Below the pieces are notes generated by a model. The model was given only the letters and a program-made list of their open reading frames with translations. It had not been told where the DNA came from and ran no database searches. The translations under genes and the position numbers were made by a program. A DNA stretch of 35,253 nt, from IMG/VR virus record IMGVR_UViG_2778261009_000009; one strand, given 5' to 3'. This DNA comes from a virus (Duplodnaviria; Heunggongvirae; Uroviricota; Caudoviricetes). This document shows positions 3,351-26,424 of the stretch, piece by piece; position 1 is the first letter of the stretch, and each line of letters starts with the position of its first letter.

Positions 3351-4177
3351 AAGAAATGCACCACGGAATTCATCATTTCCATGGGACGCCTGTCTGGGGA
3401 AGTGCTGGCGACGTTCATCGTATTGCGGTGAGCGGAGCTGGCGCTTTCGTCTCCTATGTACGACCAGATCAGATTGCGGCGTCCATTCAGCACGCTCAGG
3501 TCGTCGGCATTGATAACGGCGCATTTTCTGCATGGGTGCGTGGGCTAAAAATTAACTGGAGTGATTTTTATAAATGGCTCCTGAACTATTACCACCATCC
3601 TAAGGTCGCTTTTTTTGTCATTCCTGATGTTGTGGACGGAGGTGAACGTGACAATGATGCCCTGATAAACGAAGTTCCGAAAATGTTCTACGGGAAGGCA
3701 ACTCCCGTCTGGCATCTGCACGAGTCAATCGATCGGCTTATCGAGCTATGTCGTGAATGGCCTCGTGTCTGCTTTGGATCGTCTGGTGAATATGCGGCTA
3801 TCAGAACTGCGCACTGGCATCGTCGTATGCAGGACGCTTTTGAAGCAATTTATTGCCGACACAATTTCAAAACAGCTGTTCATGGTTTGCGCATGCTTGA
3901 CGGTCGTGTGTTGGGAAATTACCCACTGGCGACTGCCGACAGTACAAATCTTGCCTGCAATGTCCCCAAATTTAATAGCAAATATCCTGAGCTGACGCGG
4001 GCTATTCAGGAGGCTGAGTATTCGCGCAATCTGACGGAAAAGGAGCTGAAAGCTGTCATTCTGAAAAACCGTTGCGCAATTTTAAAAGGTGCAATTGAAG
4101 CTGTTCGCCCACCTTCAGTTTCTGATTGGCTGTCGAATGGTTTGCAGCCTTCACAGCTCGAACTGGAGATTGCGTAA
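3347..4177 (+). CDS. TGT-fold (tRNA-guanine transglycosylase-like, possibly DpdA-like) protein; hypothesis
   Basis: 276-aa ORF with motifs resembling TGT catalytic-Asp segments (VVGIDNGAF ~ LTDSGGFQ; FFVIPDVV ~ MIFDEC; GLRMLDGR ~ GIDMFDC); no CxCxxC zinc motif; start overlaps dam stop. Confidence 0.45.
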
Positions 4178-6518
4178 TGAACTACAGCTATTCCTGGAAT
4201 GCTGAGAAAAAAGCAATCAATCCTTACGTAGAGACGGAAGAGCAATCTTCAGTTTCTGCGCTTTCAAACCTGATCGCTCTGTACGCTGCCGATAACGAGC
4301 AGGAACAGCTGCGCCGCGAGGCACTGAGTGATCAGGTCTGGGAGCGTTATTTCTTTAATGAATCCCGTGATCCTGTCCAGCGCGAAATGGAGCAGGATAA
4401 GCTCATTAGTCGGGCAAAGCTGGCGCATGAGCAGCAGCGTTTTAATCCAGATATGGTCATTCTGGCGGACGTTAATGCCCAGCCTTCCCATATCAGCAAG
4501 CCACTGATGCAACGTATTGAATACTTCAGCAGCCTGGGCAGGCCAAAGGCTTATTCCCGCTATTTGCGTGAGACGATTAAGCCATGTCTGGAACGGCTGG
4601 AGCATGTACGCGACTGTCAGCTATCCACTTCTTTTCGCTTTATGGCAAGCCATGAAGGGCTGGACGGCCTGCTGATCCTGCCTGAAATGAGTCAGGATCA
4701 GGTGAAACGCCTGTCCACCCTGGTAGCTGCGCATATGAGCATGTGCCTTGATGCAGCTTGTGGCGATTTGTATGTCACCGATGACGTTAAGCCAGAAGAA
4801 ATCCGCAAGACATGGGAAAAGGTGGCAGCGGAAACCCTGCGTCTGGATGTTATCCCGCCTGCGTTTGAGCAACTCCGCCGGAAAAGAAACCGCCGTAAAC
4901 CCGTGCCCTATGAACTCATTCCGGGTTCGCTGGCGCGTATGTTGTGCGCTGACTGGTGGTACCGGAAATTATGGAAGATGCGTTGCGAATGGCGGGAAGA
5001 GCAGTTGCGTGCTGTCTGCCTGGTCAGCAAAAAGCATCTCCCTATGTCAGCTATGAAGCCGTGATGCATAAACGTGAGCAGCGCCGTAAGTCGCTGGAGT
5101 TTTTTCGTTCTCATGAACTGGTGAACGAAGACGGCGACACGCTGGACATGGAGGATGTGGTAAACGCCAGCAGCAGCAACCCTGCGCATCGCCGCAATGA
5201 GATGATGGCCTGTGTTAAAGGCCTGGAGCTTATCGCGGAAATGCGCGGTGACTGCGCCGTTTTCTACACCATCACCTGTCCGTCACGTTTCCATTCCACG
5301 CTAAATAATGGCAGGCCCAACCCAACTTGGACAAATGCGACGGTAAGACAAAGCAGTGATTATCTGGTCGGCATGTTTGCTGCATTTCGTAAGGCGATGC
5401 ACAAAGCCGGATTGCGGTGGTATGGCGTGCGGGTGGCTGAGCCGCATCATGACGGTACAGTTCACTGGCACCTGTTGTGTTTTATGCGCAAAAAAGACCG
5501 CCGCGCCATCACTGCATTACTGCGTAAGTTTGCCATCCGTGAAGACCGCGAGGAACTGGGCAATAACACTGGGCCGCGCTTTAAGTCTGAGTTGATTAAC
5601 CCGCGCAAAGGTACGCCAACAAGCTACATCGCGAAATACATCAGTAAGAACATTGACGGGCGTGGTCTGGCTGGCGAGATCAGCAAGGAAACGGGGAAAT
5701 CCCTGCGTGATAATGCTGAATACGTTAATGCCTGGGCGTCTCTGCATCGTGTTCAGCAATTCCGCTTCTTTGGCATTCCGGGGCGTCAGGCTTACCGTGA
5801 ACTGCGATTGCTGGCTGGTCAGGCGGCAAGGCAACAGGGGGACAAAAAAGCAGGTGCGCCGGTACTGGATAACCCGCGCCTTGATGCCATCCTGGCTGCT
5901 GCTGATGCTGGTTGTTTTGCCACCTACATCATGAAGCAGGGCGGCGTACTGGTTCCCCGCAAATATCACCTCATCAGAACCGCTTATGAAATCAACGAAG
6001 AGCCGACCGCCTATGGCGATCACGGCATTCGTATTTATGGCATCTGGTCACCTATTGCAGAGGGCAAGATCTGCACTCATGCCGTGAAGTGGAAAATGGT
6101 TCGTAAGGCCGTTGATGTTCAGGAGGCGGCAGCCGACCAGGGCGCTTGCGCCCCTTGGACTCGTGGCAATAACTGTCCCCCTGTTGAAAATTTGAACCAA
6201 TCAGGGGGCGATTTACCAGAAGCCAGTGGGCCGGAGTCGCTGCCGGATCTTCATAATCTGAGCGCGAAGGAACGACGGGAGCTGACGGCGCGGCTGAGAT
6301 TGGTAAAACCTAAGCGGCGGAAAGGGTACAAACAGCAGATTAGCAATCATCAGCGCCAGCAGCTTGATGCTGAACTGAGGTCTAGGGGGTTCGATGCGAG
6401 TGATACCGAGGTGGATCTGCTTTTGCGTGGTGGCAGTATCCCGTCCGGGGCCGGGCTGCGTTTGTTCTATCGAAACCAGCGCCTGCAGGAAGATGATAAA
6501 TGGCGGCAGTGGTACTAA
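4177..6518 (+). CDS. A: Replication initiation protein A (HUH rolling-circle endonuclease), interrupted by a frame change near 5029-5034 (ORFs 4177..5064 and 4956..6518)
   Basis: [16 protein letters not shown] motif and [12 protein letters not shown] tyrosine motif in the downstream frame; both frames resemble P2 A across the junction as recalled from memory. Confidence 0.8.
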
Positions 6519-6550
6519 TGTGAGAGTATTTTATATTCATATTCAAAAAT

Positions 6551-6582
6551 GCCAGCCTAACAAATCAGGCTGACATTTTTTT
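6551..6582. terminator. Bidirectional rho-independent terminator between gene A and convergent cargo operon
   Basis: Stem cagcct/aggctg (6553-6558/6567-6572), T7 run 6576-6582 on plus, A5 run 6545-6549 giving T-run on minus. Confidence 0.5.
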
Positions 6583-6589
6583 ACTTACT

Positions 6590-7048
6590 CTATTTAGTTT
6601 TTTCAATCATAGTGCTTTCGGCTTTTGAATATACACTATTAATAGTGGTGATTTTTGTAGTTAATGCTATACAAACTAGACTCAGAAGTAAGACACCAAT
6701 TGATATTGTATTGTTGCTGAGTATTATATGTAGACAAATAGAATAAATTGCAACAATGACTATTGCTACGAAAACAAAGATTGCCATTAAATTATGTGCT
6801 TTGATGTAGTCCTCAGGGGTTAATATGTAGCTTATGTTTATGATTATAAATAAAATTAAAAATGCTCCCCCAATCCATTTGGGTAGGGCTGTTTCTTTTT
6901 TTGATACTGCAGGTGTGGTTCTTGGGATCGATTCTACGAAGGATTTAAGATTTCCCATGTCAGTATTGTTTAATGCTGCACTTTCTGCTTCGAATTTTGA
7001 AACAGTGCCATCAGGAAGGGTTGTAGTCCAGCTTATTTTTCCTGTCAT
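6590..7048 (-). CDS. cargo membrane protein (152 aa; about 55-aa soluble N-terminus then about 3 TM helices), unknown function
   Basis: AT-rich ORF; start ATG overlaps upstream stop (ATGA); AGGGA RBS; hydrophobic segments FLILFIIINISYIL, MAIFVFVAIVIVAIYSI, IGVLLLSLVCIAL. Confidence 0.6.
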   Translation of the reverse strand: MTGKISWTTTLPDGTVSKFEAESAALNNTDMGNLKSFVESIPRTTPAVSKKETALPKWIGGAFLILFIIINISYILTPEDYIKAHNLMAIFVFVAIVIVAIYSICLHIILSNNTISIGVLLLSLVCIALTTKITTINSVYSKAESTMIEKTK

Positions 7049-7419
7049 ACAACATCCCTTATTCTGAATATTCTATTAAAATCAATATCAACAGCAGAGT
7101 TCGACCACTCACTCTTTTGATTATCTTTAATTAGAATTGCTTTGTTCTCGTCAAAGATTATATTTGTACCACTAAACTCAATATGAGATAGGTCTCCTCT
7201 AAATATTTTTTGCTCAACGCTTTTGAATGCATCTTTTAATGATGCACACTCTTTTCTGAATAATGGTTTGGGGCTGTAAGTCCCTAAGTTTATAACTATT
7301 ACGCCACTACCATCTTTAGCAGGGTGAATGGAGAAAGATAGCGCTAATCCGTGATAGTGGGATTGTATTTTCTTCATTAATTTACGAACGTAATCATCAT
7401 ACCGCTTTCTATATATCAT
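7045..7419 (-). CDS. cargo soluble protein (124 aa), unknown function, first gene of two-gene operon
   Basis: AT-rich ORF translationally coupled to 6590..7048; candidate promoter TCGACA-18-TAATAT upstream on minus strand. Confidence 0.55.
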   Translation of the reverse strand: MIYRKRYDDYVRKLMKKIQSHYHGLALSFSIHPAKDGSGVIVINLGTYSPKPLFRKECASLKDAFKSVEQKIFRGDLSHIEFSGTNIIFDENKAILIKDNQKSEWSNSAVDIDFNRIFRIRDVV

Positions 7420-7583
7420 TTTTTTCTTAATGGTTAGTTGTTTTTCGTATATTACAATACTAATAAATATATTGTCGATTCAAATAAAACGTTGTAGCCA
7501 AGCGGAAGAATTTTAGTTTACGGATGGTTGTTTTTTGATCTCCATAGCCGAAGGCAATCTGAACTATAGTGATCATAAAAGTG

Positions 7584-7627
7584 TTTACATTCATGGAACT
7601 ACGCATATACTGTATATGTGTACAGTG
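7584..7627 (+). promoter_or_regulatory. SOS-regulated promoter: -35 TTTACA (7584-7589), -10 TATACT (7606-7611), LexA box TACTGTATATGTGTACAGTG (7608-7627)
   Basis: Perfect CTGT-N8-ACAG palindrome (7610-7625) overlapping the -10 and start site, about 30 bp upstream of a strong RBS. Confidence 0.7.
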
Positions 7628-7657
7628 CTTTCTGTGTGTTTGGTGATAGGAGGGAAG

Positions 7658-7846
7658 ATGCAAGACTATTTTTTGGAGTCGTTGAAGCTCCAGCGCATTG
7701 ATTTTTTTGTCAAGCTTGTGGCGGCTAGTGAGTGTGATGATGAAGAGAAGCGACTGGCTATCCAGTGGGTTTCTGAGTTAACGGATGAGCTGATGGCAAA
7801 GATTCGTGCTCATGAATACAACCGCTCAATGGATCTTCCCAGTTAA
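7658..7846 (+). CDS. SOS-controlled small protein (62 aa), candidate Tum/DinI-like antirepressor
   Basis: ATG at 7658 with TAGGAGGGA RBS immediately downstream of LexA box; acidic small protein; weak resemblance to DinI C-terminus. Confidence 0.55.
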   Translation: MQDYFLESLKLQRIDFFVKLVAASECDDEEKRLAIQWVSELTDELMAKIRAHEYNRSMDLPS

Positions 7847-7924
7847 CAGCAGGAACGTTGCTGGCGTGAGAACTAGCTTCTTACGTCAGCAAGGTTAAAC
7901 AACGAGTACAACGAGGCGTTAGCC

Positions 7925-8191
7925 ATGGGTAAATCCAACAGCAAATTCCAGACCGTTTATGAGGGGCAGGCGCTTGAACGTGACGAACTTGGCGGATGGG
8001 TTTTGTTTCAGCGTCGTGTAGAGTATGGCGGCAAGTACTGGATGGGAATAACCATGGATGATGTGTTTTTGTTTGGCTCCGATCATCCTGTATCAGGTAG
8101 TGAGGCGATGGTCTTCATCATTGATTATGAGGGCGAGCAGCTCAGACGGTCTTTACCCGTTGGATACACCCCACAAATGCCGCTTTTCTGA
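7925..8191 (+). CDS. SOS-operon second gene (88 aa), unknown function
   Basis: ORF with GAGG RBS, same strand, followed by strong terminator. Confidence 0.5.
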   Translation: MGKSNSKFQTVYEGQALERDELGGWVLFQRRVEYGGKYWMGITMDDVFLFGSDHPVSGSEAMVFIIDYEGEQLRRSLPVGYTPQMPLF

Positions 8192-8258
8192 CAACCGGCT
8201 GGGTGCATGTCTATGCTGCATGAGATCGCATGATCGTTTGAGGATCGTTTTCGCTGAG

Positions 8259-8286
8259 GCCCGCCAGAACTGGCGGGCTTTTGCTT
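8259..8286 (+). terminator. rho-independent terminator of the SOS operon
   Basis: 8-bp GC stem gcccgcca/tggcgggc, loop gaac, followed by TTTTGCTT. Confidence 0.75.
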
Positions 8287-8327
8287 ATGTCATGCAGGTG
8301 CATGAAAATCGCTCCATAAAGCGGGCA

Positions 8328-8346
8328 GGCGTGGCGGGGATACGAG
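8328..8346. other. candidate cos site (cohesive-end sequence) GGCGTGGCGGGGATACGAG
   Basis: First 13 nt match the P2/186-family 19-nt cohesive end as I recall it (GGCG(A/T)GGCGGGGAAAGCA...); lies in non-coding DNA between right-end genes and the Q side. Confidence 0.35.
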
Positions 8347-8433
8347 CGCGCGCAATAGGGTTATGTACAATAAATTTTTGACGATCTTCGAGTGTTATTA
8401 GCTTGAGGCTGTCAGGGAAAATGAATACAATAA

Positions 8434-8465
8434 GAAGCGCCTAGCAGAATGTTACTAGGCGCTTC
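8434..8465 (-). terminator. perfect 11-bp inverted repeat hairpin (gaagcgcctag ... ctaggcgcttc), possible terminator of the minus-strand cargo operon
   Basis: Read directly; followed on minus strand by T-rich stretch; no T-run on plus. Confidence 0.35.
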
Positions 8466-8498
8466 GAATATATAACCTGTATGACTTTCTTAACCTAC

Positions 8499-8606
8499 TT
8501 ATCTTTTTGATTTCTTCTTCGTATCATCGTGATCGAATACTTGGCGTGTAGGCGGCTTGCTGGGTGGTGGCGGCGGCGGTAAATTAGATTTCTCATTTTT
8601 GCTCAT
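8499..8606 (-). CDS. polyproline mini-ORF 3 (35 aa): MSKNEKSNLPPPPPPSKPPTRQVFDHDDTKKKSKR
   Basis: Hand-translated; own AGGA RBS; start lies inside the end of mini-ORF 2; paralogous to two upstream mini-ORFs. Confidence 0.35.
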   Translation of the reverse strand: MSKNEKSNLPPPPPPSKPPTRQVFDHDDTKKKSKR

Positions 8607-8724
8607 CTTTATTTTTCCTATTTTTTGGATCATTGCCATAGCTTTCTCTAACTAACCGAGTGATTGGCGGTTTAGGTGGTGGTGGTGGTGCTTCATTTTT
8701 TTTAGGATTTTTGTGTTCGGTCAT
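8593..8724 (-). CDS. polyproline mini-ORF 2 (43 aa): MTEHKNPKKNEAPPPPPKPPITRLVRESYGNDPKNRKNKDEQK
   Basis: In-frame portion of track ORF 8593..8778 starting at ATG 8724 with AAGGA RBS; overlaps neighbours in other frames. Confidence 0.4.
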   Translation of the reverse strand: MTEHKNPKKNEAPPPPPKPPITRLVRESYGNDPKNRKNKDEQK

Positions 8725-8839
8725 TTTTATCGTCCTTTCTGTCTCTTCGTAGTTGCCTTGCTTTTGAATCATCTTCAATAACGATCCTTCTTGCGGGTGG
8801 AGTAGGCCGAGGAGGTGGTGGCGGTAACGGTTTGGTCAT
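8702..8839 (-). CDS. polyproline mini-ORF 1 (45 aa): MTKPLPPPPPRPTPPARRIVIEDDSKARQLRRDRKDDKNDRTQKS
   Basis: Hand-translated; ATG overlaps stop of upstream membrane-protein gene (TAATG); AGGAGA RBS 5 nt upstream. Confidence 0.4.
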   Translation of the reverse strand: MTKPLPPPPPRPTPPARRIVIEDDSKARQLRRDRKDDKNDRTQKS

Positions 8840-9489
8840 TAAGTTCTCCTGACATTTTCAATAGGTATTATCAAATAGTTAGGGTCGTTATTTTTCCGCG
8901 GTGATGCTGCATCTAAATCAGCTAAAAGAAATATGACTACTGCTGCGATAATTGGAATCCATGACCAGACAAGATACTTTGTTGACTCAAATAGTTTACT
9001 GGAACGTTCCTCATTGATATTACTGTTCCAGCTAGCACATTCTCTGATTTCTTGATGAATAAACTCCCAAAGTTTATTATCAGGGTTATAACTTTCATCG
9101 TATGTAAGTCCATTGTCATCGCAATATTTTTTATATTTCACTTCGTAACTAATCAGATCTATGTGATAATCATGCAATGCTTTAGGTGCAGGGCAATACT
9201 TAAATTCATTTCCCCATATGACTTGTTTCAACAGAATTGATGATACAAGAACTAAACCAAATGAAATTGCGGTACATAAAAATACTAGGCAAGCTAGCCT
9301 TGGGTGGGATTCATAAGATGTATTTTTGGCGAGATAAGTGAGTATAGTTGCGGTAATGACAACTAATCCGAATTCGGCTTGAGCGCGAGTATGTATCTTG
9401 TCTTTATTCTCAATTTCTGAGAAATAAAGTTTTTCGTAAAATTCTAATGCTTTATCCTTTTTCATTTTTAGATTCAGTGTGATGTCCAT
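8839..9489 (-). CDS. cargo membrane protein (216 aa; two N-proximal TM helices, soluble Cys-containing middle domain, C-terminal TM helix), unknown function
   Basis: AT-rich ORF between portal terminator and mini-ORFs; hydrophobic segments FGLVVITATILTYL, LACLVFLCTAISFGLVLVSSILL, VWSWIPIIAAVVIFLL. Confidence 0.6.
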   Translation of the reverse strand: MDITLNLKMKKDKALEFYEKLYFSEIENKDKIHTRAQAEFGLVVITATILTYLAKNTSYESHPRLACLVFLCTAISFGLVLVSSILLKQVIWGNEFKYCPAPKALHDYHIDLISYEVKYKKYCDDNGLTYDESYNPDNKLWEFIHQEIRECASWNSNINEERSSKLFESTKYLVWSWIPIIAAVVIFLLADLDAASPRKNNDPNYLIIPIENVRRT

Positions 9490-9510
9490 GTATCAAACAT
9501 ATCACGATAA

Positions 9511-9540
9511 CAAAAAAAGAAAAGCCGCAATTCTGCGGCT
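9511..9540 (-). terminator. rho-independent terminator downstream of portal gene Q
   Basis: Stem agccgca/tgcggct (9523-9529/9534-9540) followed on minus strand by T-tract (plus A-run 9511-9522). Confidence 0.6.
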
Positions 9541-9549
9541 GTTGGGAAG

Positions 9550-10587
9550 CTAATCTAGCGATAATTCGTAATTTGTGAACCCTATCGCGTTTTTATCCAG
9601 CCATTTATTAAGCTCCTCAAAGCGTCTCTGAAGCGGAATAAGTTCATTACGAACGAATACGCGGCTGGCCTTCTCCACATCCCCAAATCCCCCAACATTA
9701 TTAGGCATAATCCCCATCATTTGCGGTGGCACACGATGCGCCGCCATCATGTCATCCCGGCTCACGTTCTTGATGTTTAGAAACTCATCCTTCGCCGCGA
9801 CTTCTGACAGAGGAATGATCTGAAGCCCATCCTTTTTGCCGTTAGGCGAGTACATAAACAGGTTGCGGAAGTTACCCGGTCCTTTGGCGCTTTTCATCGC
9901 ATTGCGGAGGTTGTTCACATCCTCCTGGTTCTGCGCGGCATCGGTCATGTACATGATGAAGCCTGCATGACTACCGTTAATGTAATACTTCCGGCGGAAC
10001 AGCGTGGCGGACTCGTTGAGCAAAGCGGATGGGATGGCAGAAAGATAGCCGGGCAGGCCGTAGATCTCCTGATTAATATCCGGTTCCATCAGATGAAAAA
10101 TGCTGCCTTTCGAGAACTGATACGGCTGGGTTGTCATACCGTATTGCACAAACCAGTAGGTATCCAGGTCTAACCCGCGTCGGGTATATTTTGCCAGAGC
10201 AGGCTCAAGGGCGATAACTTCACCGAAGCGGTTCGTGCGTTTCTCCAAGTAGGCGTTACCAAATACCAGATAGTCCTGCACAAAACGTGAAAAAGCCTGC
10301 TGGCTGAGCAGCGGGTGAGGGATGTAGGTACTGGTCAGTATGTTGCATTTCACCGCAATTGGTGAACTGTGATGCACGGCAGCGCGGAAGGTGCGCGCCA
10401 GTCCGTCAAAGCTCACTGGCGGCTCATACCAGCGATCTGTCTGTACGCATTCCACATAGTCCAGCAGTTCTCGGCGGTCCAGAACAGGAACGGGATCGCC
10501 GAAGCTGAATGCTTCGGCTGTAGTTTGACTTTTAAGCTGGATCTGTTTTGTCGCCGAAGCGCGGTTCTTCTTACTCTTTCCCATCAA
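9550..10587 (-). CDS. Q: portal protein (capsid portal, gpQ-like)
   Basis: 345-aa ORF colinear with P2 Q; start overlaps terminase stop (ATGATG with TGA). Confidence 0.85.
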   Translation of the reverse strand: MMGKSKKNRASATKQIQLKSQTTAEAFSFGDPVPVLDRRELLDYVECVQTDRWYEPPVSFDGLARTFRAAVHHSSPIAVKCNILTSTYIPHPLLSQQAFSRFVQDYLVFGNAYLEKRTNRFGEVIALEPALAKYTRRGLDLDTYWFVQYGMTTQPYQFSKGSIFHLMEPDINQEIYGLPGYLSAIPSALLNESATLFRRKYYINGSHAGFIMYMTDAAQNQEDVNNLRNAMKSAKGPGNFRNLFMYSPNGKKDGLQIIPLSEVAAKDEFLNIKNVSRDDMMAAHRVPPQMMGIMPNNVGGFGDVEKASRVFVRNELIPLQRRFEELNKWLDKNAIGFTNYELSLD

Positions 10588-17861: not shown

Positions 17862-18300
17862 ACTGCAGAAGGTGGACGACTGGCTGAGTGCCTTGCTGGC
17901 GAATCTGGAACCAGCCACGAGAAGTCGCATGATGCGCCAGCTGGCGCAGGAACTGCGCCGGACACAGCAGCAGAACATCAGGATGCAGCGCAATCCAGAT
18001 GGCAGCAGTTATGAACCTCGACGGGTAACAGCACGCAGTAAAAAGGGGCGCATCAAACGTCAGATGTTTGCAAAGCTGCGCACCACAAAATACCTGAAAA
18101 CTGCCGCCAGCGCCGACTCTGCCAGCGTACAGTTTGAAGGTAAGGTGCAGCGTATTGCCCGTGTTCACCATTACGGCCTGCGCGATCGCGTCAGTCGCAA
18201 AGGACCGGAAGTTCGTTACGCAGAGCGTCGGTTGCTGGGTCTTAATGGTGAGTCTTACGTTCTAACTCTTGATATATTGAATAGATTCCTTCTGTCTTGA
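17854..18300 (+). CDS. S: tail completion protein gpS-like (GTG start); last ~19 codons lie in AT-rich inserted DNA
   Basis: Size and position as P2 S; 3' end overlaps convergent moron gene. Confidence 0.75.
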   Translation: MAELQKVDDWLSALLANLEPATRSRMMRQLAQELRRTQQQNIRMQRNPDGSSYEPRRVTARSKKGRIKRQMFAKLRTTKYLKTAASADSASVQFEGKVQRIARVHHYGLRDRVSRKGPEVRYAERRLLGLNGESYVLTLDILNRFLLS

Positions 18301-19048
18301 ATTCACCATATGCCCAATGAATTGCATTTTTTTGTTCAGTCAGAATATATTTCCTAACTTTTTTAGAATAATGAATGGTCAGTATAAAACCCAAAGAAAT
18401 CCATAATAGAATAAATATGGTTGTTGGGGCAAAGGAATAGATAAAGAATTTGTCTTTAACGAAATTCTTGACTTCTTCATCAATGTAAGCATTCCCTTCA
18501 TCAGTGGTTAGTAGTTTACAAAGAATTTCTTTATGTTCGATAGTTAATGATTTGTACTTCTCTGTACTGGCAGAGGATGACTCTTCGCAATCATCCTTTG
18601 ATATTTCCCAATCAGGAGTGGTTAATATTGTAGCTGCAGTCGCCAGTTTTTTTGACATATAAAATGATTCACCGGACTTTATCCAATAAAGCAATGTGCT
18701 ATTTGGTGGGGTTCTAATGGCTTGGATGAAAACTGGACCAAAAATATAAATTGCATACAAAAAAAGAAGTGAAAAGAGAACCGTGATTGATTTTTCAGCC
18801 CATGTGATAGTAGGCAGCCTTTTTAATGATATTCGTATAAGAAAAAAATTTAATATAAACGCAGGTATTCCTGATTTTTTCAAAATTACATCATGAGATT
18901 TTCTATATTTGAATAGTGCTCTTATAACTATCGTCACCAAAGTTATAATAGCTCCAATAATGGAAATCCATGCGGCAAGTGCCGCTGCCGGGGTGTTTAA
19001 AAATTCAGCATTAAATATATTAGAACTTATTGGATTCATAACACTCAT
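18242..19048 (-). CDS. moron-encoded membrane protein (268 aa, about 4 TM helices with central soluble region), unknown function
   Basis: AT-rich minus-strand ORF between S and V; AGGTGG RBS; hydrophobic segments at N-terminus, ~88-110 and ~210-232. Confidence 0.6.
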   Translation of the reverse strand: MSVMNPISSNIFNAEFLNTPAAALAAWISIIGAIITLVTIVIRALFKYRKSHDVILKKSGIPAFILNFFLIRISLKRLPTITWAEKSITVLFSLLFLYAIYIFGPVFIQAIRTPPNSTLLYWIKSGESFYMSKKLATAATILTTPDWEISKDDCEESSSASTEKYKSLTIEHKEILCKLLTTDEGNAYIDEEVKNFVKDKFFIYSFAPTTIFILLWISLGFILTIHYSKKVRKYILTEQKNAIHWAYGEFKTEGIYSIYQELERKTHH

Positions 19049-19087
19049 TTATCCACCTATTGGTTGTTTTTTATCCTTTTATCAATT

Positions 19088-19105
19088 TGTACCATCGATA
19101 CCACA
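19088..19105 (+). promoter_or_regulatory. late promoter activator site TGT-N12-ACA upstream of baseplate operon (V)
   Basis: tgt accatcgatacc aca read directly, about 50 bp upstream of V start. Confidence 0.5.
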
Positions 19106-19151
19106 ATTTGCAAGAAGTTATAAACAAGTTTTCAGCTGTCATCATATATCT

Positions 19152-20981: not shown

Positions 20982-21579
20982 TCTGCTGCCACCGGGTTCA
21001 ACGCCACTAGAGCGCCGACTGGCGCAAGCGTGCAGCGGGATTTCTGATTTGCAGGTGCCGCTGCGTGACTTGTGGAATCCGGCAACCTGTCCAGTCAGTT
21101 TCCTGCCTTATCTCGCCTGGGCGTTCTCTGTGGATCGCTGGGACGAGGGCTGGACAGAAAGCGTCAAGCGCCAGGTGGTGAAGGATGCTTTTTATATTCA
21201 TCAGCATAAAGGGACCACCAGTGCCGTGCGGCGGGTGGTGGAGCCGTTCGGCTTTCTGATCCGCATTATTGAGTGGTGGCAGACCGGAGAGGCACCGGGC
21301 ACGTTTCGCCTGGATATCGGCGTGCAGGACCAGGGCATCACTGAAGATACCTATCTGGAACTTGAGCGACTGATAAGCGATGCCAAACCATGTAGCCGTC
21401 ACATGATCGGCATGTCCATCAATCTGCAGACCAGCGGCCCGCATTGGGTGGGAGCCGCCAGCTATCTTGGCGAAGAAATCACGATCTATCCGTATATCAA
21501 CGAAACAATTATTTCCGGTGGCACCGCGCATGAAGGCGGGGCGGTCCATGTTATTGACACAATGAGAGTGAATCCATGA
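20974..21579 (+). CDS. I: baseplate/tail protein gpI-like
   Basis: 201-aa ORF overlapping J stop. Confidence 0.8.
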   Translation: MNSLLPPGSTPLERRLAQACSGISDLQVPLRDLWNPATCPVSFLPYLAWAFSVDRWDEGWTESVKRQVVKDAFYIHQHKGTTSAVRRVVEPFGFLIRIIEWWQTGEAPGTFRLDIGVQDQGITEDTYLELERLISDAKPCSRHMIGMSINLQTSGPHWVGAASYLGEEITIYPYINETIISGGTAHEGGAVHVIDTMRVNP

Positions 21580-23117
21580 GCACAAAATTTTATACCCTGC
21601 TGACGGATATTGGCGCGGCGAAACTTGCCAGCGCCGCCGCGCTCGGTGTGCCTTTAAAAATTACCCATATGGCGGTCGGCGATGGCGGCGGAACATTGCC
21701 AACGCCGGACGCAAAGCAGACAGCATTGGTAAATGAGAAACGCCGGGCTGCGCTGAATATGCTCTATATCGACCCGCAGAACAGCAGCCAGATTATTGCC
21801 GAACAGGTAATCCCTGAAAACGAGGGCGGTTGGTGGATACGTGAAGTGGGCCTGTTTGATGAGTCAGGGGCATTGATTGCCGTGGGAAACTGCCCGGAAA
21901 GCTATAAGCCGCAACTGGCTGAAGGCAGCGGGCGTACCCAGACCGTGCGCATGGTGCTGATTACCAGCAGCACGGACAATATCACCCTGAAAATCGACCC
22001 TGCTGTAGTGCTGGCAACCCGCAAGTATGTGGATGACAAGGCACTGGAGCTGAAGGTGTACGCGGATGATCAGATGGCAAAACATCTTGCCGCACCGAAC
22101 CCGCATTCACAGTATGCAGCCAAAGAAAGTCCTACGTTTACCGGGACACCCAAAGCGCCAACGCCAGCGGCGGGGAATAACACCACGCAGGTTGCGACCA
22201 CCGCATTTGTTCAGGCGGCACTGACGGCTCTTATTAATGGTGCGCCAGCCACGCTGGACACGCTGAAAGAAATAGCCGTAGCCATTAACAATGATCCGAA
22301 ATTCAGTACCACCATTAACAATGCGCTGGCACTGAAAGCGCCGCTGTCGAGTCCGGCACTCACCGGAACGCCAACAGCCCCTACGGCGGCGCAGTCGGTC
22401 AATAATACACAGATTGCCACTACGGCTTTTGTGAAATCGGCGATTGCAGGAATGGTGGGTTCTGCACCTGCGGCACTGGATACACTGAACGAACTGGCGG
22501 CGGCACTGGGGAATGATCCGAACTTTGCCACGACAATGCTTAATGCGCTGGCAGGTAAACAACCGCTGGACAATACGCTGACTAATTTGAGTGGAAAGGA
22601 TGTAGCTGGTCTTCTCACATACCTTGGTTTGGGAGAAGGCTCTGCATTACCTGTTGGTGTGCCTGTTCCGTGGCCTTCCGCCACTCCGCCGACAGGCTGG
22701 CTGAAATGCAACGGAGCAGCTTTTTCTGCTGAAGAATACCCGGAACTGGCAAAGGCTTATCCGACAAATAAATTGCCTGATTTACGCGGTGAATTTATTC
22801 GTGGCTGGGATGACGGACGTGGAGTGGATAACGGAAGGGGATTATTAACGCTTCAGGACGGTGCGATTGTCAGTCATAACCACTATTGGGGAATCTGGAC
22901 TTCACGAACTAACGACCAGACTCTGGAAAGTTTTACAGGCACCACGATTTTAAAACAAATCACGCCCCTGTCTCCAGCCATTGACTTCGATAATTACCCA
23001 ATTCCCAACCCGGCTATTACAGAGGGTGGTGTTGTTGCGGCAACGACTAAACCTGCAGGTGCGAATGAAACACGCCCACGAAATGTCGCTTTTAACTATA
23101 TTGTGAGGGCTGCATAA
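21576..23117 (+). CDS. H: tail fibre protein gpH-like; constant part 21576-22637 fused to the currently expressed variable C-terminal domain 22638-23117
   Basis: 513-aa ORF with N-terminal fibre anchor, two copies of a ~75-aa fibre repeat, C-terminal receptor-binding-like domain. Confidence 0.85.
   Translation: MSTKFYTLLTDIGAAKLASAAALGVPLKITHMAVGDGGGTLPTPDAKQTALVNEKRRAALNMLYIDPQNSSQIIAEQVIPENEGGWWIREVGLFDESGALIAVGNCPESYKPQLAEGSGRTQTVRMVLITSSTDNITLKIDPAVVLATRKYVDDKALELKVYADDQMAKHLAAPNPHSQYAAKESPTFTGTPKAPTPAAGNNTTQVATTAFVQAALTALINGAPATLDTLKEIAVAINNDPKFSTTINNALALKAPLSSPALTGTPTAPTAAQSVNNTQIATTAFVKSAIAGMVGSAPAALDTLNELAAALGNDPNFATTMLNALAGKQPLDNTLTNLSGKDVAGLLTYLGLGEGSALPVGVPVPWPSATPPTGWLKCNGAAFSAEEYPELAKAYPTNKLPDLRGEFIRGWDDGRGVDNGRGLLTLQDGAIVSHNHYWGIWTSRTNDQTLESFTGTTILKQITPLSPAIDFDNYPIPNPAITEGGVVAATTKPAGANETRPRNVAFNYIVRAA
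22612..22637. other. invertase crossover site (hix/gix-like 26-bp site, left) inside H
   Basis: ttctcacataccttggtttgggagaa; reverse complement shares 14 of 14 bp (ttctcccaaaccaa) with the second site; central AA dinucleotide. Confidence 0.7.
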
Positions 23118-23719
23118 TGAATAACGCAGAATTAAACAGTGAATTAATTGCCACTATAGCAGGAGAAATTACTGTTTATAACTTTGACGTCATGAGTCGG
23201 GAGTATATTTCAGCTTCAACTGAATATCTTGCTGTTGGTGTCGGCATTCCGGCATATTCCTGTTTAGATGCTCCAGGCACCTACAAAGCTGGTTATGCAA
23301 TCTGCCGCTCTGCAGATTTTAACTCATGGGAATATGTACCAGACCATCGCGGTGAAATTGTCTTTAGCACCGAAACAGGAGAATCAAAAGAAATCACAGC
23401 ACCGGGTGATTACCCTGATAATACAACCACTATCGCCCCGTTAACGCCATACGATAAATGGGATGGTGAGAAATGGGTGACGGATACCGAGGCACAGCAT
23501 AGCGCCGTAGTAGATGCAGCAGAAGCACAGCGCCAGTCGCTGATTGATACAGCAATGGCTTCTATCAGTCTGATTCAACTGAAATTACAGGCCGGACGGA
23601 ATCTGACGCAGGCAGAAACCGCCCGACTTAACGCTGCGCTGGATTACATTGACGCGGTGACGGCAACAGATACCAGCACCGCACCGGATGTCATCTGGCC
23701 TGAACTGCCGGAGGCGTAG
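23117..23719 (+). CDS. G: tail fibre assembly protein (Tfa, gpG-like), expressed orientation
   Basis: 200-aa ORF overlapping H stop; conserved C-terminal APDVIWPELP-type motif. Confidence 0.8.
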   Translation: MNNAELNSELIATIAGEITVYNFDVMSREYISASTEYLAVGVGIPAYSCLDAPGTYKAGYAICRSADFNSWEYVPDHRGEIVFSTETGESKEITAPGDYPDNTTTIAPLTPYDKWDGEKWVTDTEAQHSAVVDAAEAQRQSLIDTAMASISLIQLKLQAGRNLTQAETARLNAALDYIDAVTATDTSTAPDVIWPELPEA

Positions 23720-24110
23720 GCCATTCAATATCTGGAGCACTGGAGGGATCAACCAGTTCCAGTGCGTCCAGATAATCCAGCCATAAATTATATTGCGCCA
23801 GTTCCTCACCTTTCAGACGACCAATAGCCGCTTTACCTAGCCATTGTCTGCTGTTCATGTGCTCGTTGGCTTCATTAATAAGTTTTCTTTTTTCCAACTC
23901 CACCAATGCAATAAGGTTTTCTTTTGATAAAGGTGGTTGCTCTGTCAAAACCGGATATCCCTCCTGATTGCTGACTATTTTCATGCCATTATCCTGACCA
24001 TCCAGTAGTAACAGCCATTCATCCGTGGTTATCTCAACAGCATCTGAAGGTGCTTTATTTAAATCGGTAAAAAAACCATTTTCTTTTTGTGAATAGAAGT
24101 ATCTGTCCAT
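23691..24110 (-). CDS. alternative tail fibre assembly protein (Tfa'), silent orientation
   Basis: 139-aa ORF with Tfa-type C-terminus SAPDIEWPTPP; follows alternative fibre segment on minus strand. Confidence 0.7.
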   Translation of the reverse strand: MDRYFYSQKENGFFTDLNKAPSDAVEITTDEWLLLLDGQDNGMKIVSNQEGYPVLTEQPPLSKENLIALVELEKRKLINEANEHMNSRQWLGKAAIGRLKGEELAQYNLWLDYLDALELVDPSSAPDIEWPTPPAVQAR

Positions 24111-24113
24111 TTA

Positions 24114-24487
24114 TCAATCTCCAAAAGCAATCCAGTAAGCAAAAGGATTTATTCCTTGCTCAGTCACAGATGACATCAGGGAAAATTGCGATGGTGAAAC
24201 AGGCAATGCTGCAAAACTAACCATTGTTGACACACCTGACCGTGCATTATCGTACGATGCAACAACACAATAATTGGTATTGCTGAAAGATATCGGCAGG
24301 GTGATATTTACAGGTGAGCCTAATGGTCCTGATGCTGATATTCCCATTTGAATGATGGTTCCATCAGGCAATTTTCTCCAGCGATTAGAACTCGGATTTC
24401 TTTTCCAGGCTGACATATCCGGTATCTGATTTTCTCCTGTACCCACATCCCTTTTCGCCGCTTCTCCCAAACCAACGTTTATTAAAA
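24114..24487 (-). CDS. alternative tail fibre C-terminal variable segment (H'v), no own start; becomes fused to H constant part after inversion
   Basis: Reading frame continues through crossover site encoding GLGE shared with H (…YLGLGE); ends 3 nt before Tfa' start. Confidence 0.65.
24462..24487. other. invertase crossover site (hix/gix-like 26-bp site, right), next to invertase gene
   Basis: ttctcccaaaccaacgtttattaaaa with central AA; inverted relative to site at 22612-22637. Confidence 0.7.
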
Positions 24488-24542
24488 TGCAGAGATAATG
24501 GCTAACTGGCATCATCCATGGTTTTTATTCAGGGGATTGATC

Positions 24543-25109
24543 ATGCTTATTGGCTATGTACGCGTGTCAACAAATGACCAGAACACCGATTTGCAACGTA
24601 ATGCACTGAACTGCGCGGGATGTGAGCGGATTTTTGAGGATAAAATCAGTGGCACTAAGCCCGACAGACCGGGGCTTAAAAAACTGCTCAGGACACTATC
24701 GGCTGGAGACACTCTGGTTGTCTGGAAGCTGGACAGGTTGGGGCGCAGTATGCGGCATCTTGTTACGCTGATAGAAGAGTTGCGTCAGCGTGGCGTGAAT
24801 TTCCGAAGCCTGACTGACAGTATTGATACCAGCACCCCAATGGGCCGTTTCTTTTTTCATGTCATGGGGGCCCTGGCTGAAATGGAACGCGAACTGATAG
24901 TTGAACGTACCATGGCAGGGCTGGCTGCAGCTCGTGCCAAAGGCAGAGTAGGTGGACGCCGTCCTAAGTTGACCACCGAACAGTGGGCACAGATTGGGCG
25001 TTTACTCGAGGCCGGAGAATCAAGACAGCGTATTGCACTGATTTTTGATGTAGGCGTTTCTACCATTTATAGAAAATTTCCGGCAAATAAGAGCAATGAA
25101 TCCCCCTGA
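24543..25109 (+). CDS. serine DNA invertase (Hin/Gin/Cin/Pin family)
   Basis: N-terminal MLIGYVRVSTNDQ catalytic-serine motif, resolvase domain, C-terminal HTH; ATG 24543 with AGGGGA RBS. Confidence 0.85.
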   Translation: MLIGYVRVSTNDQNTDLQRNALNCAGCERIFEDKISGTKPDRPGLKKLLRTLSAGDTLVVWKLDRLGRSMRHLVTLIEELRQRGVNFRSLTDSIDTSTPMGRFFFHVMGALAEMERELIVERTMAGLAAARAKGRVGGRRPKLTTEQWAQIGRLLEAGESRQRIALIFDVGVSTIYRKFPANKSNESP

Positions 25110-25157
25110 ATCAGCATTATTTTGATTATCCCTGCAAGTAGACAAATACCGTCATTT

Positions 25158-25175
25158 TGTGTGAATAACGACACA
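25158..25175 (+). promoter_or_regulatory. late promoter activator site TGT-N12-ACA upstream of tail sheath operon
   Basis: tgt gtgaataacgac aca read directly, about 80 bp upstream of FI start. Confidence 0.5.
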
Positions 25176-25251
25176 ACTGCGCTTAGCTGTTTGTCAGGCA
25201 CAATCACTTCAACATAGGGCGAAGCCTAATCCAATCAGGAGGTTCGCCACT

Positions 25252-26424
25252 ATGGCTCAGGATTACCACCACGGGGTGCGCGTTGTTGAAGTCAACGAAG
25301 GCACCCGATCCATTACCACGGTGAGCACCGCCATCGTGGGCATGGTCTGCACGGGCGATGATGCCGATGCAAAAATGTTTCCTCTTAATAAACCCGTGCT
25401 GATCACTGATGTGCTTACCGCCAGTGGTAAAGCGGGTGAGTCCGGCACACTGGCCCGCTCGCTGGATGCCATCGCTGACCAGGCAAAACCCGTGACCGTT
25501 GTTGTGCGTGTGCCGCAGGGTGAAACGGAAGAAGAAACCACGACCAATATCATCGGCGCAGTGACTGCTGAAGGTAAAAAAACAGGTATGAAAGCCCTGT
25601 TATCTGCCCAGTCACAGCTCGGCGTTAAACCGCGCATTCTCGGCGTGCCAGGCCACGACACCAAGGCGGTAGCTACTGAGTTGCTGAGCGTGGCGCAAAG
25701 CCTGCGTGGGTTTGCTTACCTGTCAGCGTATGGCTGCAAGACAGTGCAGGAGGCGATCACTTACCGCGAAAACTTCAGCCAGCGCGAAGGGATGCTGATC
25801 TGGCCTGACTTTACTGGCTGGGACACGGTGCTGAATGCCGAAGCAACGGCATATGCCACCGCTCGTGCGCTCGGTCTGCGCGCCAAAATTGATGAGCAGA
25901 CTGGATGGCACAAAAGCCTGTCCAACGTGGGCGTGAACGGTGTCACCGGAATTTCTGCTGATGTGTTCTGGGATCTGCAGGACCCGGCAACCGATGCAGG
26001 TCTGCTGAACCAGAACGACGTCACCACGCTTGTGCGTAAAGACGGTTTCCGCTTCTGGGGTTCCCGCTGCCTGAGTGATGACCCGCTCTTTGCCTTCGAA
26101 AACTACACCCGCACGGCGCAGGTGCTGATGGACACGATGGCAGAAGCACACATGTGGGCGGTGGATAAACCGCTTAACCCGTCGCTGGCCCGCGACATTA
26201 TCGAAGGTATCCGCGCCAAAATGCGCAGCCTGGTCAGTCAGGGCTATCTCATTGGTGGTGATTGCTGGCTGGATGAGTCGGTGAACGACAAAGACACGCT
26301 GAAAGCCGGAAAACTCACCATCGACTATGACTACACGCCAGTGCCGCCACTTGAAAATCTGATGCTGCGCCAGCGCATCACCGATCAGTACCTGGTGAAT
26401 TTCGCCAGCCAGGTCAGCGCGTAA
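25252..26424 (+). CDS. FI: tail sheath protein gpFI-like
   Basis: 390-aa ORF, CAGGAGG RBS, P2 order. Confidence 0.85.

What the first reader, a model, noticed from the sequence alone, without database searches (positions are those of the whole stretch)
22612..25109. Invertible tail-fibre host-range switch with hix/gix-like crossover sites and adjacent invertase
Two 26-bp sites in inverted orientation (22612-22637 and 24462-24487) share a 14-bp half-site (ttctcccaaaccaa) and central AA, like Hin/Gin/Cin sites. One lies inside H at the constant/variable junction; the other is just upstream of a serine invertase gene. Between them are the expressed fibre C-terminus plus tfa (plus strand) and a startless alternative fibre C-terminus plus a second tfa (minus strand), whose frame reads GLGE through the crossover exactly as H does. 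The two tfa genes overlap tail-to-tail by 29 bp (23691-23719). This is a Mu G-segment-like switch in the P2 slot that otherwise holds Z/fun; classic P2 lacks it, though it is known biology.
Basis: partly seen in the sequence, partly recalled or inferred. Interest (0 to 1): 0.55.

Follow-up and report, generated by a model that had tools for sequence, protein, structure and literature searches.

The report
Pin-type invertible tail-fibre switch, P2-like prophage
This is an ordinary, already well-documented phage device: a small DNA segment that an adjacent enzyme flips to swap the tip of the phage tail fibre. Near-identical copies are found in both orientations in public E. coli genomes.

Summary
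Two 26-bp sites (22612-22637 and 24462-24487) lie in inverted orientation. They share an identical inner half-site and the same central AA. Between them are a tail-collar fibre tip plus a 200-aa Tfa chaperone on the + strand, and a gp53-like tip plus a 139-aa Tfa on the - strand. An intact serine invertase (24543-25109) follows; it is 85% identical to PinE of e14, 77% to Cin and 74% to Gin. Inverting the segment in silico gives an in-frame 469-aa alternative fibre.

Relatives show that the segment really flips:
- In E. coli 13TMH22, the chromosomal prophage and its 36-kb circular copy are identical over 7,500 bp once the segment is inverted.
- Two assemblies of ATCC 8739 differ in the same way (0 mismatches over 5,467 bp).
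- Among 5,426 complete E. coli genomes, 43 carry the window state and 19 the inverted state.

The right site differs by 1 nt from the right-hand site of e14. The + cassette is stfE/tfaE-like. The host element is a P2-like prophage next to ybjL, and the module sits where P2 has fun(Z).

Invertible fibre segments in P2-like prophages are published (EPEC E2348/69, Fels-2) and annotated in many phage records. The host-range effect is inferred, not tested. Verdict: real, functional, already known, low interest.

The parts
21576..22625 (+). Constant N-terminal part of tail fibre gene H (aa 1-350). It lies outside the invertible segment.
   Evidence: Pfam Phage_tail_fib N-terminal domain, E = 3e-65. 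50% identity to P2 H over aa 1-354, and the homology stops at the crossover.
22612..22637 (.). Left 26-bp crossover site inside H: TTCTCACATACC TT GGTTTGGGAGAA. It encodes LTYLGLGE.
   Evidence: The orientation breakpoints in relatives fall here.
22626..23117 (+). Currently expressed variable fibre C-terminus (Sv, 163 aa) with a tail-collar domain.
   Evidence: Pfam Collar, E = 1.2e-14. 58% identity to the e14 StfE' C-terminus, with 92% nucleotide identity over the first 219 nt.
23117..23719 (+). Tail-fibre assembly chaperone for the expressed tip (200 aa, TfaE-like). Its start overlaps the H stop codon.
   Evidence: Pfam Caudo_TAP, E = 9e-33. 87% identical to e14 TfaE.
23691..24110 (-). Silent alternative assembly chaperone (139 aa, TfaP-like). 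It overlaps the + strand tfa by 29 bp (23691-23719).
   Evidence: Pfam Caudo_TAP, E = 6e-25. 53% identical to e14 TfaP. Overlap read from the ORF coordinates.
24114..24473 (-). Silent alternative fibre C-terminus (Sv', 119 aa from GLGE). It is fused in frame to H only after inversion.
   Evidence: Pfam Gp53-like_C, E = 1.2e-13. In-frame 469-aa fusion in silico. The fused 1,410-nt gene is annotated in relatives.
24462..24487 (.). Right 26-bp crossover site, 56 bp upstream of the invertase start: TTCTCCCAAACC AA CGTTTATTAAAA.
   Evidence: 25 of 26 nt identical to the site upstream of pinE in e14.
24543..25109 (+). Serine DNA invertase (188 aa) of the Pin/Cin/Gin/Hin group. The catalytic Ser9 motif YVRVST and the C-terminal HTH are intact.
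24561..24632 (.). Stretch homologous to the annotated recombinational enhancer of P1 cin, inside the 5' end of the invertase gene. It contains a 15-mer matching the Fis consensus (as recalled from memory) at 24613-24627, conserved in all four invertase genes compared.
   Evidence: P1 enhancer annotation. Gap-free alignment: 56/72 nt identical to cin, 63/72 to pin. Function is inferred.

Best explanation
This is a functional Pin-type (Hin/Gin/Cin/Pin family) site-specific inversion switch in the tail-fibre gene of a P2-like prophage of E. coli.

How it works: the invertase (24543-25109) binds the two 26-bp sites. It synapses them, most likely with Fis bound to an enhancer inside the 5' end of its own gene. 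It then cuts at the central AA/TT dinucleotide, rotates the strands and rejoins them. This flips the roughly 1.85-kb segment 22626-24473.

- In the orientation seen in the window, the constant part of H (aa 1-350) is fused to a tail-collar tip and is followed by a TfaE-like chaperone.
- In the other orientation, the same constant part is fused to a gp53-like tip and is followed by a TfaP-like chaperone.

Only the cassette facing the late V-operon promoter is transcribed and translated. A lysogen population would therefore release two kinds of virions with different adsorption specificity.

Shown here: the anatomy, the intactness of all parts, the family relationships, and real inversion at these exact sites in relatives that are 95-98% identical. 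Inferred: activity of this particular copy, Fis and enhancer dependence, and the change of host range.
For: - Sites, frames and the in-frame alternative fusion.
- Domain content of all five genes.
- Invertase matches Gin structures at 2e-93 and is 85%, 77% and 74% identical to PinE, Cin and Gin, with the catalytic motifs conserved.
- Right site is 25/26 identical to the e14 site, and the + cassette is homologous to stfE'/tfaE.
- p13TMH22-1 is collinear with the in-silico inverted window over 5,002 bp at 97.8% identity, with the orientation change bounded by 22624-22638 and 24461-24478.
- In strain 13TMH22, the chromosomal copy inverted in silico equals the circular copy, with 0 mismatches in 7,500 bp.
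- Two ATCC 8739 assemblies differ by the same exact inversion, with 0 mismatches in 5,467 bp. A 1-nt polymorphism in the inner half-site moves with the segment.
- Both states occur in complete E. coli genomes, 43 versus 19.
- Published phase-variable inversions in P2-like prophages and in e14 (PMC4272514), and in Fels-2 (PMC7953296).
Against: - No read-level data exist for this particular genome, so switching of this copy is not shown.
- The outer half of its right site (CGTTTATTAAAA) differs by 1-2 nt from the sites of the relatives seen to flip.
- No sigma-70 consensus promoter for the invertase was found between the site and its start codon.
- Support for the enhancer from synonymous-site conservation is weak and inconsistent: 0.30 against 0.52 versus pin, but 0.64 against 0.60 versus gin.
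- The receptors of the two tips are unknown.
Confidence: 0.9

Rival explanations
1. Frozen relic. The architecture is inherited from an active switch, but this copy no longer inverts, for example because of its variant outer half-site on the right or too little invertase expression. The prophage would then make only the collar-type fibre.
For: The right outer half-site is unique among the copies examined: TATT here, against TATG in e14 and ATCC 8739 and TAAG in 13TMH22. No consensus promoter for the invertase was found. The invertase has three private substitutions relative to close relatives.
Against: Those site positions already vary among copies that demonstrably flip. The private substitutions lie at positions that also vary among Gin, Cin and Pin; M124, for instance, is the Gin residue. 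The silent cassette is fully open and 96-99% identical to expressed copies elsewhere.
Confidence: 0.07
2. Host-serving function. The switch matters mainly in the lysogen, where inversion creates a fibre-derived protein that masks a receptor and blocks superinfecting phages. This has been reported for the StfE2 chimera of e14 after PinQ-driven inversion.
For: The expressed tip and its chaperone are homologous to e14 StfE'/TfaE. PMC12529663 reports that inversion of the e14 P segment yields StfE2, which blocks T2 adsorption. The site is nearly identical to the e14 site, so cross-action in trans is plausible.
Against: Here the fibre gene lies inside the late V operon of an apparently complete P2-like prophage. 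By established P2 biology, that operon is silent in lysogens. The middle part of the tip (about 22830-23067) is diverged from e14 StfE.
Confidence: 0.03
3. A chance inverted repeat next to an unrelated recombinase, with no switch at all.
For: Exact 12-nt inverted repeats are common in this region: seven were observed, and 40% of shuffles have at least one.
Against: A 15-nt exact core arose in 0.4% of shuffles. The site matches a known crossover site at 25/26 positions. Both frames stay open across the site. Natural inversions have their breakpoints exactly here.
Confidence: 0

Closest known systems
Invertible P segment and PinE of the cryptic prophage e14 (E. coli K-12)
   Same: - The gene layout is the same: fibre constant part, site, tip, tfa, convergent tfa', tip', site, invertase.
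- The chaperone sizes are the same or close (603 nt for the TfaE-like one in both; 420 nt here against 414 nt in e14), and the 29-bp tail-to-tail overlap is the same.
- The invertases are 85% identical.
- The right site is 25/26 identical, and the inner half-sites are identical.
- The + cassette is homologous: Tfa 87%, tip 58%.
   Different: - The fibre shaft is P2 H-type here and StfP-type in e14.
- The second cassette is only distantly related: tip 30%, Tfa 53%.
- The host element is an apparently complete P2-like prophage, not a defective lambdoid/Mu-tail remnant.
- In MG1655 the stfE cassette lies in the silent orientation; here it is expressed.
G segment and Gin of phage Mu; C segment and Cin of phage P1
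   Same: - The same recombinase family: 74% identity to Gin, 77% to Cin.
- 26-bp sites built as 12 + 2 + 12.
- A constant fibre N-terminus outside the segment, with alternative tips and chaperones inside.
- As in Mu, the site lies just upstream of the invertase gene.
   Different: - The segment is 1.85 kb, against about 3 kb in Mu and 4.2 kb in P1.
- The tips and chaperones are unrelated in sequence to S/U and S'/U': no BLAST hits.
- The outer half-sites here are not identical to each other, whereas the Mu gix sites are full inverted repeats.
- The P1 enhancer and cixL are arranged differently relative to cin.
Invertible tail-fibre loci of P2-like prophages: EPEC E2348/69 (Goldberg et al. 2014, PMC4272514) and Salmonella Fels-2 with fin (PMC7953296)
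   Same: The same kind of element in the same kind of phage. Both orientations were shown to coexist in clonal cultures by paired-end sequencing and PCR. In Fels-2 the inversion fuses alternative C-termini to an identical N-terminus next to a pin homologue.
   Different: One EPEC locus has three inverted repeats and four variants. Here there are only two sites and two variants.
Annotated P2-like phage genomes carrying the same module (for example Escherichia phage 500465-1 NC_049342, Klebsiella phages Kp4845-2 and KP12, Escherichia phage Cartapus)
   Same: 93-96% nucleotide identity over 52-79% of 21576-25300. The 500465-1 and KP12 records carry tail fibre, tail fibre assembly and DNA invertase annotations. 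Invertase identity is 98-99% in 500465-1, KP12 and Kp4845-2-type phages.
   Different: The cassette combinations differ between records, which explains the partial coverage.

Membership tests
Hin/Gin/Cin/Pin (Din) DNA-inversion systems | A small serine recombinase of about 190 aa, with an N-terminal catalytic domain carrying the Ser9/10 nucleophile and a C-terminal helix-turn-helix. | tested here: met
   Pfam Resolvase at 8.8e-53 and HTH_7 at 1.5e-15. Gin PDB entries 3UJ3 and 4M6F match at E = 2e-93 over residues 1-184. The YVRVSTNDQ and LDRLGRS motifs are conserved, with 74-85% identity to Gin, Cin and PinE.
Hin/Gin/Cin/Pin (Din) DNA-inversion systems | Two 26-bp crossover sites in inverted orientation, each made of two imperfect 12-bp half-sites around a 2-bp core, with the same asymmetric core in both. 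| tested here: met
   Sites 22612-22637 and 24462-24487 both have core AA when read in the same sense. The inner half-sites are identical, and the outer half-sites match the inner one at 10/12 and 7/12. The right site is 25/26 identical to the e14 site. The layout is the same as in Mu gix and P1 cix.
Hin/Gin/Cin/Pin (Din) DNA-inversion systems | A cis-acting, Fis-dependent recombinational enhancer. | tested here: inconclusive
   The stretch 24561-24632 aligns without gaps to the enhancer annotated in P1 cin (56/72 identical; 63/72 to pin). A 15-mer matching the Fis consensus (recalled from memory), at gene nt 71-85, is conserved in all four genes. This is coding sequence, however, and excess conservation at synonymous sites is weak and inconsistent. 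Fis binding cannot be tested here.
Hin/Gin/Cin/Pin (Din) DNA-inversion systems | The segment actually inverts, so that both orientations exist with breakpoints at the sites. | tested here: met
   Not testable for this genome itself. It is met in close relatives: 13TMH22 chromosome versus its circular copy (0 mismatches in 7,500 bp after in-silico inversion); two ATCC 8739 assemblies (0 in 5,467 bp); and 43 versus 19 genomes in the two states.
Phage tail-fibre host-range switch (Mu G / P1 C / e14 P type) | A constant fibre N-terminus outside the segment, with two alternative C-terminal tips inside it. Each tip has its own downstream assembly chaperone, and both tips are in frame with the constant part. 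| tested here: met
   The fused alternative gene is annotated as a 1,410-nt phage tail protein in relatives.
Phage tail-fibre host-range switch (Mu G / P1 C / e14 P type) | The two orientations give virions with different host or receptor specificity. | not testable with these tools
   The two tips belong to different Pfam families, Collar and Gp53-like_C, so different receptors are likely. No receptor or adsorption data can be obtained here.
P2-like phages (Peduoviridae) | P2 gene order (Q P O N M L ... R S V W J I H G ... FI FII E T U D ogr) with P2-family capsid and tail proteins. | tested here: met
   The window is collinear at 96.6-97.4% identity with a RefSeq-annotated prophage that has exactly this content and lies next to ybjL. 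The order V W J I H G [slot] FI was compared with P2 itself.
Multiple-inversion systems (Min of p15B, or the three-site P2-like locus of EPEC) | More than two crossover sites, giving more than two arrangements. | tested here: not met
   Only two copies of the half-site occur in the 35-kb window. The one additional 3-mismatch hit is at chance level: 3.2 expected, 3 found.

The most novel reading that the evidence does not exclude
The most novel reading still open is that the prophage invertase also acts in trans on other Pin-type segments in the same cell (e14-like elements have a site that is 25/26 identical). Carriage of this P2-like prophage would then re-programme fibre-derived proteins of cryptic prophages, including StfE2-like receptor-masking defence. 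A further possibility is that the crossover site serves as the joint through which the same cassette pair moves between unrelated tail modules; the pair is seen at about 95% identity on an e14/Mu-like baseplate, with homology starting at the site.
Probability: 0.25. Interest if true: 0.35.

Novelty: already known. Interest (0 to 1): 0.12.

Why it matters
The practical value is for annotation.

- The fibre gene of this prophage should be described as two alternative products: 513 aa as sequenced, and 469 aa after inversion.
- The minus-strand 'gp53-like' ORF should not be called as a stand-alone gene.
- Differences in orientation between assemblies of one strain are biological, not assembly errors.

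For phage biology this adds one more example to a well-known class. It is not a new mechanism.

Tried and rejected
- I searched for extra crossover sites (a Min-like multi-site system) with up to 3 mismatches and found none beyond chance.
- A sigma-70 promoter and terminator scan of 22400-25300 gave counts at shuffle level. It found no convincing invertase promoter or V-operon terminator.
- I tested whether synonymous sites in the enhancer-equivalent codons 7-30 are more conserved than in the rest of the gene. The effect was small and inconsistent across pairs, so I do not use it as evidence.
- My first shuffle test for the inverted repeat was inflated by local palindromes. I redid it requiring at least 100 nt between the arms.
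- NCBIfam gave no family-level name for any of the five proteins: only below-cutoff hits for the invertase and none for the fibre proteins.
- The alignment of the invertase-FI spacer to the annotated P2 pF region was too poor to map the Ogr site.
- Pfam and PADLOC searches of cargo ORFs elsewhere in the window gave nothing, apart from one DUF6216 hit and one below-cutoff hit.
- I did not run structure prediction or the large protein-database searches. The answer did not depend on them.
Full report
**1. What is in the sequence**

Left site. The window carries TTCTCACATACC-TT-GGTTTGGGAGAA at 22612-22637. It lies inside the long ORF 21576-23117 (513 aa).

Right site. TTCTCCCAAACC-AA-CGTTTATTAAAA lies at 24462-24487, which is 56 bp upstream of an invertase-like ORF.

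Relationship of the two sites. Read in the same sense, they share an identical inner 12-nt half-site and the same AA core. The outer half-sites match the inner one at 10/12 and 7/12 positions. The repeat finder lists the pair as the longest inverted repeat of the region: 27 nt at 81%, with a 15-nt exact core.

Is this more than chance? An exact, well-separated 15-nt inverted repeat occurs in 0.4% of 1,000 shuffles of 21000-26000 (a first version was inflated by palindromes). The 14-nt half-site occurs exactly twice in the 35-kb window.

Content of the segment:
- The 3' part of H (Pfam Collar) on the + strand.
- A 200-aa Caudo_TAP chaperone on the + strand.
- A 139-aa Caudo_TAP chaperone on the - strand.
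- A 119-aa Gp53-like_C fibre tip on the - strand.

The two chaperone genes overlap tail-to-tail by 29 bp (23691-23719). Both tips read GLGE through the site. Inverting 22626-24473 in silico gives an uninterrupted 469-aa fibre.

**2. The recombinase**

The ORF is best started at 24543 (MLIGYVRVST...). It has Resolvase and HTH_7 domains. It matches the Gin crystal-structure sequences at E = 2e-93 over residues 1-184. It is 85% identical to PinE of e14, 77% to Cin of P1 and 74% to Gin of Mu, without indels and with the catalytic motifs intact.

The stretch 24561-24632 aligns without gaps to the enhancer annotated inside P1 cin. It contains a 15-mer matching the Fis consensus (as I recall it, GNNYRNNWNNYRNNC) that is conserved in all four invertase genes. 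Because this is coding sequence, and the excess of synonymous-site conservation is weak, I treat the enhancer as inferred only.

**3. Context**

- The window is most of a P2-like prophage, from the repressor region to ogr, plus E. coli flank (ybjL, ybjM).
- It is collinear at 96.6-97.4% identity with an annotated prophage of E. coli DETEC-P829. The host flank is 99.7% identical.
- The gene order around the finding is V W J I H tfa [tfa' tip' invertase] FI.
- In P2 itself the bracketed position holds fun(Z) on the minus strand.
- Homology of H to P2 H (50%) ends at aa 354, which is at the crossover.

**4. Which classical system it belongs to**

The e14 element of K-12 has the same layout:
- Chaperone genes of 603 and 414 nt (603 and 420 nt here).
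- The same 29-bp overlap.
- The same inner half-sites.
- A right site that differs from the window's at one position.

The + cassette is stfE'/tfaE-like: Tfa is 87% identical and the tip 58%, with the first 219 nt at 92% nucleotide identity. The - cassette is only distantly StfP/TfaP-like, at 30% and 53%. The Mu and P1 tips and chaperones show no detectable similarity.

So this is a Pin/P-segment type module joined to a P2-type fibre shaft.

**5. Does it flip?**

I built both junction states and searched complete E. coli genomes. Both states exist. A place covering at least 80% of the 2.46-kb window-state query occurs in 43 genomes, and of the inverted-state query in 19.

Two cases are decisive.

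*E. coli 13TMH22.*
- The strain carries the element in the chromosome in the window state, and as a 36,172-bp circular record (p13TMH22-1) in the other state.
- Inverting the chromosomal copy in silico between the two sites reproduces the circular copy with 0 mismatches in 7,500 bp.
- That element is 97.8% identical to the inverted window over 5 kb, and 99.4% within the segment. The change of strand is bounded by 22624-22638 and 24461-24478.

*E. coli ATCC 8739.*
- Two independent assemblies of this strain differ by the same exact inversion, with 0 mismatches in 5,467 bp.
- There the two inner half-sites differ at their outermost nucleotide, and that nucleotide travels with the segment. This places the exchange within the site, consistent with the central dinucleotide.

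**6. Mechanism**

*Established for the family, inferred here.* The invertase dimers bound at the two sites synapse with the Fis-bound enhancer. They cleave at the 2-bp core, rotate and religate.

*Consequence, read directly from the sequence.* The constant H part is joined to one tip or the other, and only the cassette facing the late V operon is expressed together with its cognate chaperone.

*Inferred consequence.* The progeny phage fall into two classes with different receptor specificity. The two tips belong to different Pfam families, which fits this. No receptor can be assigned with these tools.

**7. Prior knowledge**

- Goldberg et al. 2014 (PMC4272514) showed by sequencing and PCR that invertible loci in P2-like prophages of EPEC E2348/69, and the e14 locus, coexist in both orientations in clonal cultures.
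- The Fels-2 fibre inversion next to fin is described in PMC7953296.
- In the phage collection, 71 records match this region at the nucleotide level, and 116 encode a close homologue of the invertase. They include many P2-like phages annotated with 'DNA invertase' and two tail-fibre assembly genes.
- A recent paper reports that inversion of the e14 segment yields a chimeric StfE2 protein that blocks T2 adsorption (PMC12529663). I keep a host-serving role as a low-probability rival, because here the gene lies in a late operon of an apparently complete prophage.

**8. Verdict**

The closest relative is the Pin/P segment of e14 rather than Mu. The feature is real, very probably active, and already known. 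Interest is low.

Noticed in passing
window 6207-9668: This stretch is not collinear with the otherwise 97% identical DETEC-P829 prophage, which carries an AAA ATPase, a ComF-family gene and a DinI-like gene there. The window's ORFs are 6590-7048(-), 7045-7419(-), 8839-9489(-), 7925-8191(+) and 8058-8381(+). None has a PADLOC hit, and the only Pfam hit is one below-cutoff match for 8839-9489. It looks like unknown cargo in the P2 accessory hotspot between the replication gene and the portal gene.
   Followed up: partly
window 18251-19150: About 0.9 kb of extra DNA lies between the virion-morphogenesis gene (S) and baseplate gene V. It carries a 268-aa minus-strand ORF (18242-19048) with a DUF6216 match at E = 1.6e-11. 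DETEC-P829 has only a short spacer there, and WS3294A has a P-loop NTPase gene at the same place. This looks like a second cargo hotspot.
   Followed up: partly
L013 (E. coli QEC11-421, NZ_CP048821.1) 3715-6476: The same pair of cassettes plus pinE, at about 95% identity, sits on an e14/Mu-like baseplate module (gp46/gp47/YmfQ) rather than a P2 tail. Homology to the window begins at query nt 296, which is at the crossover site. The invertible module is therefore exchanged between unrelated tail modules, with the site as the boundary.
   Followed up: partly
L002 and L010 (E. coli 13TMH22, NZ_CP019257.1 and NZ_CP019256.1): The record deposited as plasmid p13TMH22-1 (36,172 bp, circular) appears to be a circular copy of the strain's own chromosomal P2-like prophage. 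The two are identical over the 7.5 kb compared, apart from the inverted fibre segment.
   Followed up: partly
L011 and L012 (E. coli ATCC 8739, two assemblies): The inner half-sites differ at one nucleotide (GGTTTGGGAGAA against GGTTTGGGAGAG). The variant nucleotide moves with the segment between the two assemblies, which confines the exchange point to within the 26-bp site.
   Followed up: yes
window 25158-25175: A TGT-N12-ACA motif lies upstream of the tail sheath gene FI (25252). It may be the Ogr-type activator site of the late F promoter; the consensus is recalled from memory. The alignment to the annotated P2 pF region was too poor to confirm it.
   Followed up: partly
window 24498-24542 and 24476-24515: Two mechanical ORF extensions cross in the invertase leader. 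One is a 15-codon upstream extension of the invertase (ATG at 24498). The other is a 14-codon extension of the silent fibre tip on the minus strand (ATG at 24515). RefSeq annotates the minus-strand ORF in relatives as a stand-alone 'gp53-like domain-containing protein' of 303 or 402 nt, which is probably an annotation artefact.
   Followed up: partly
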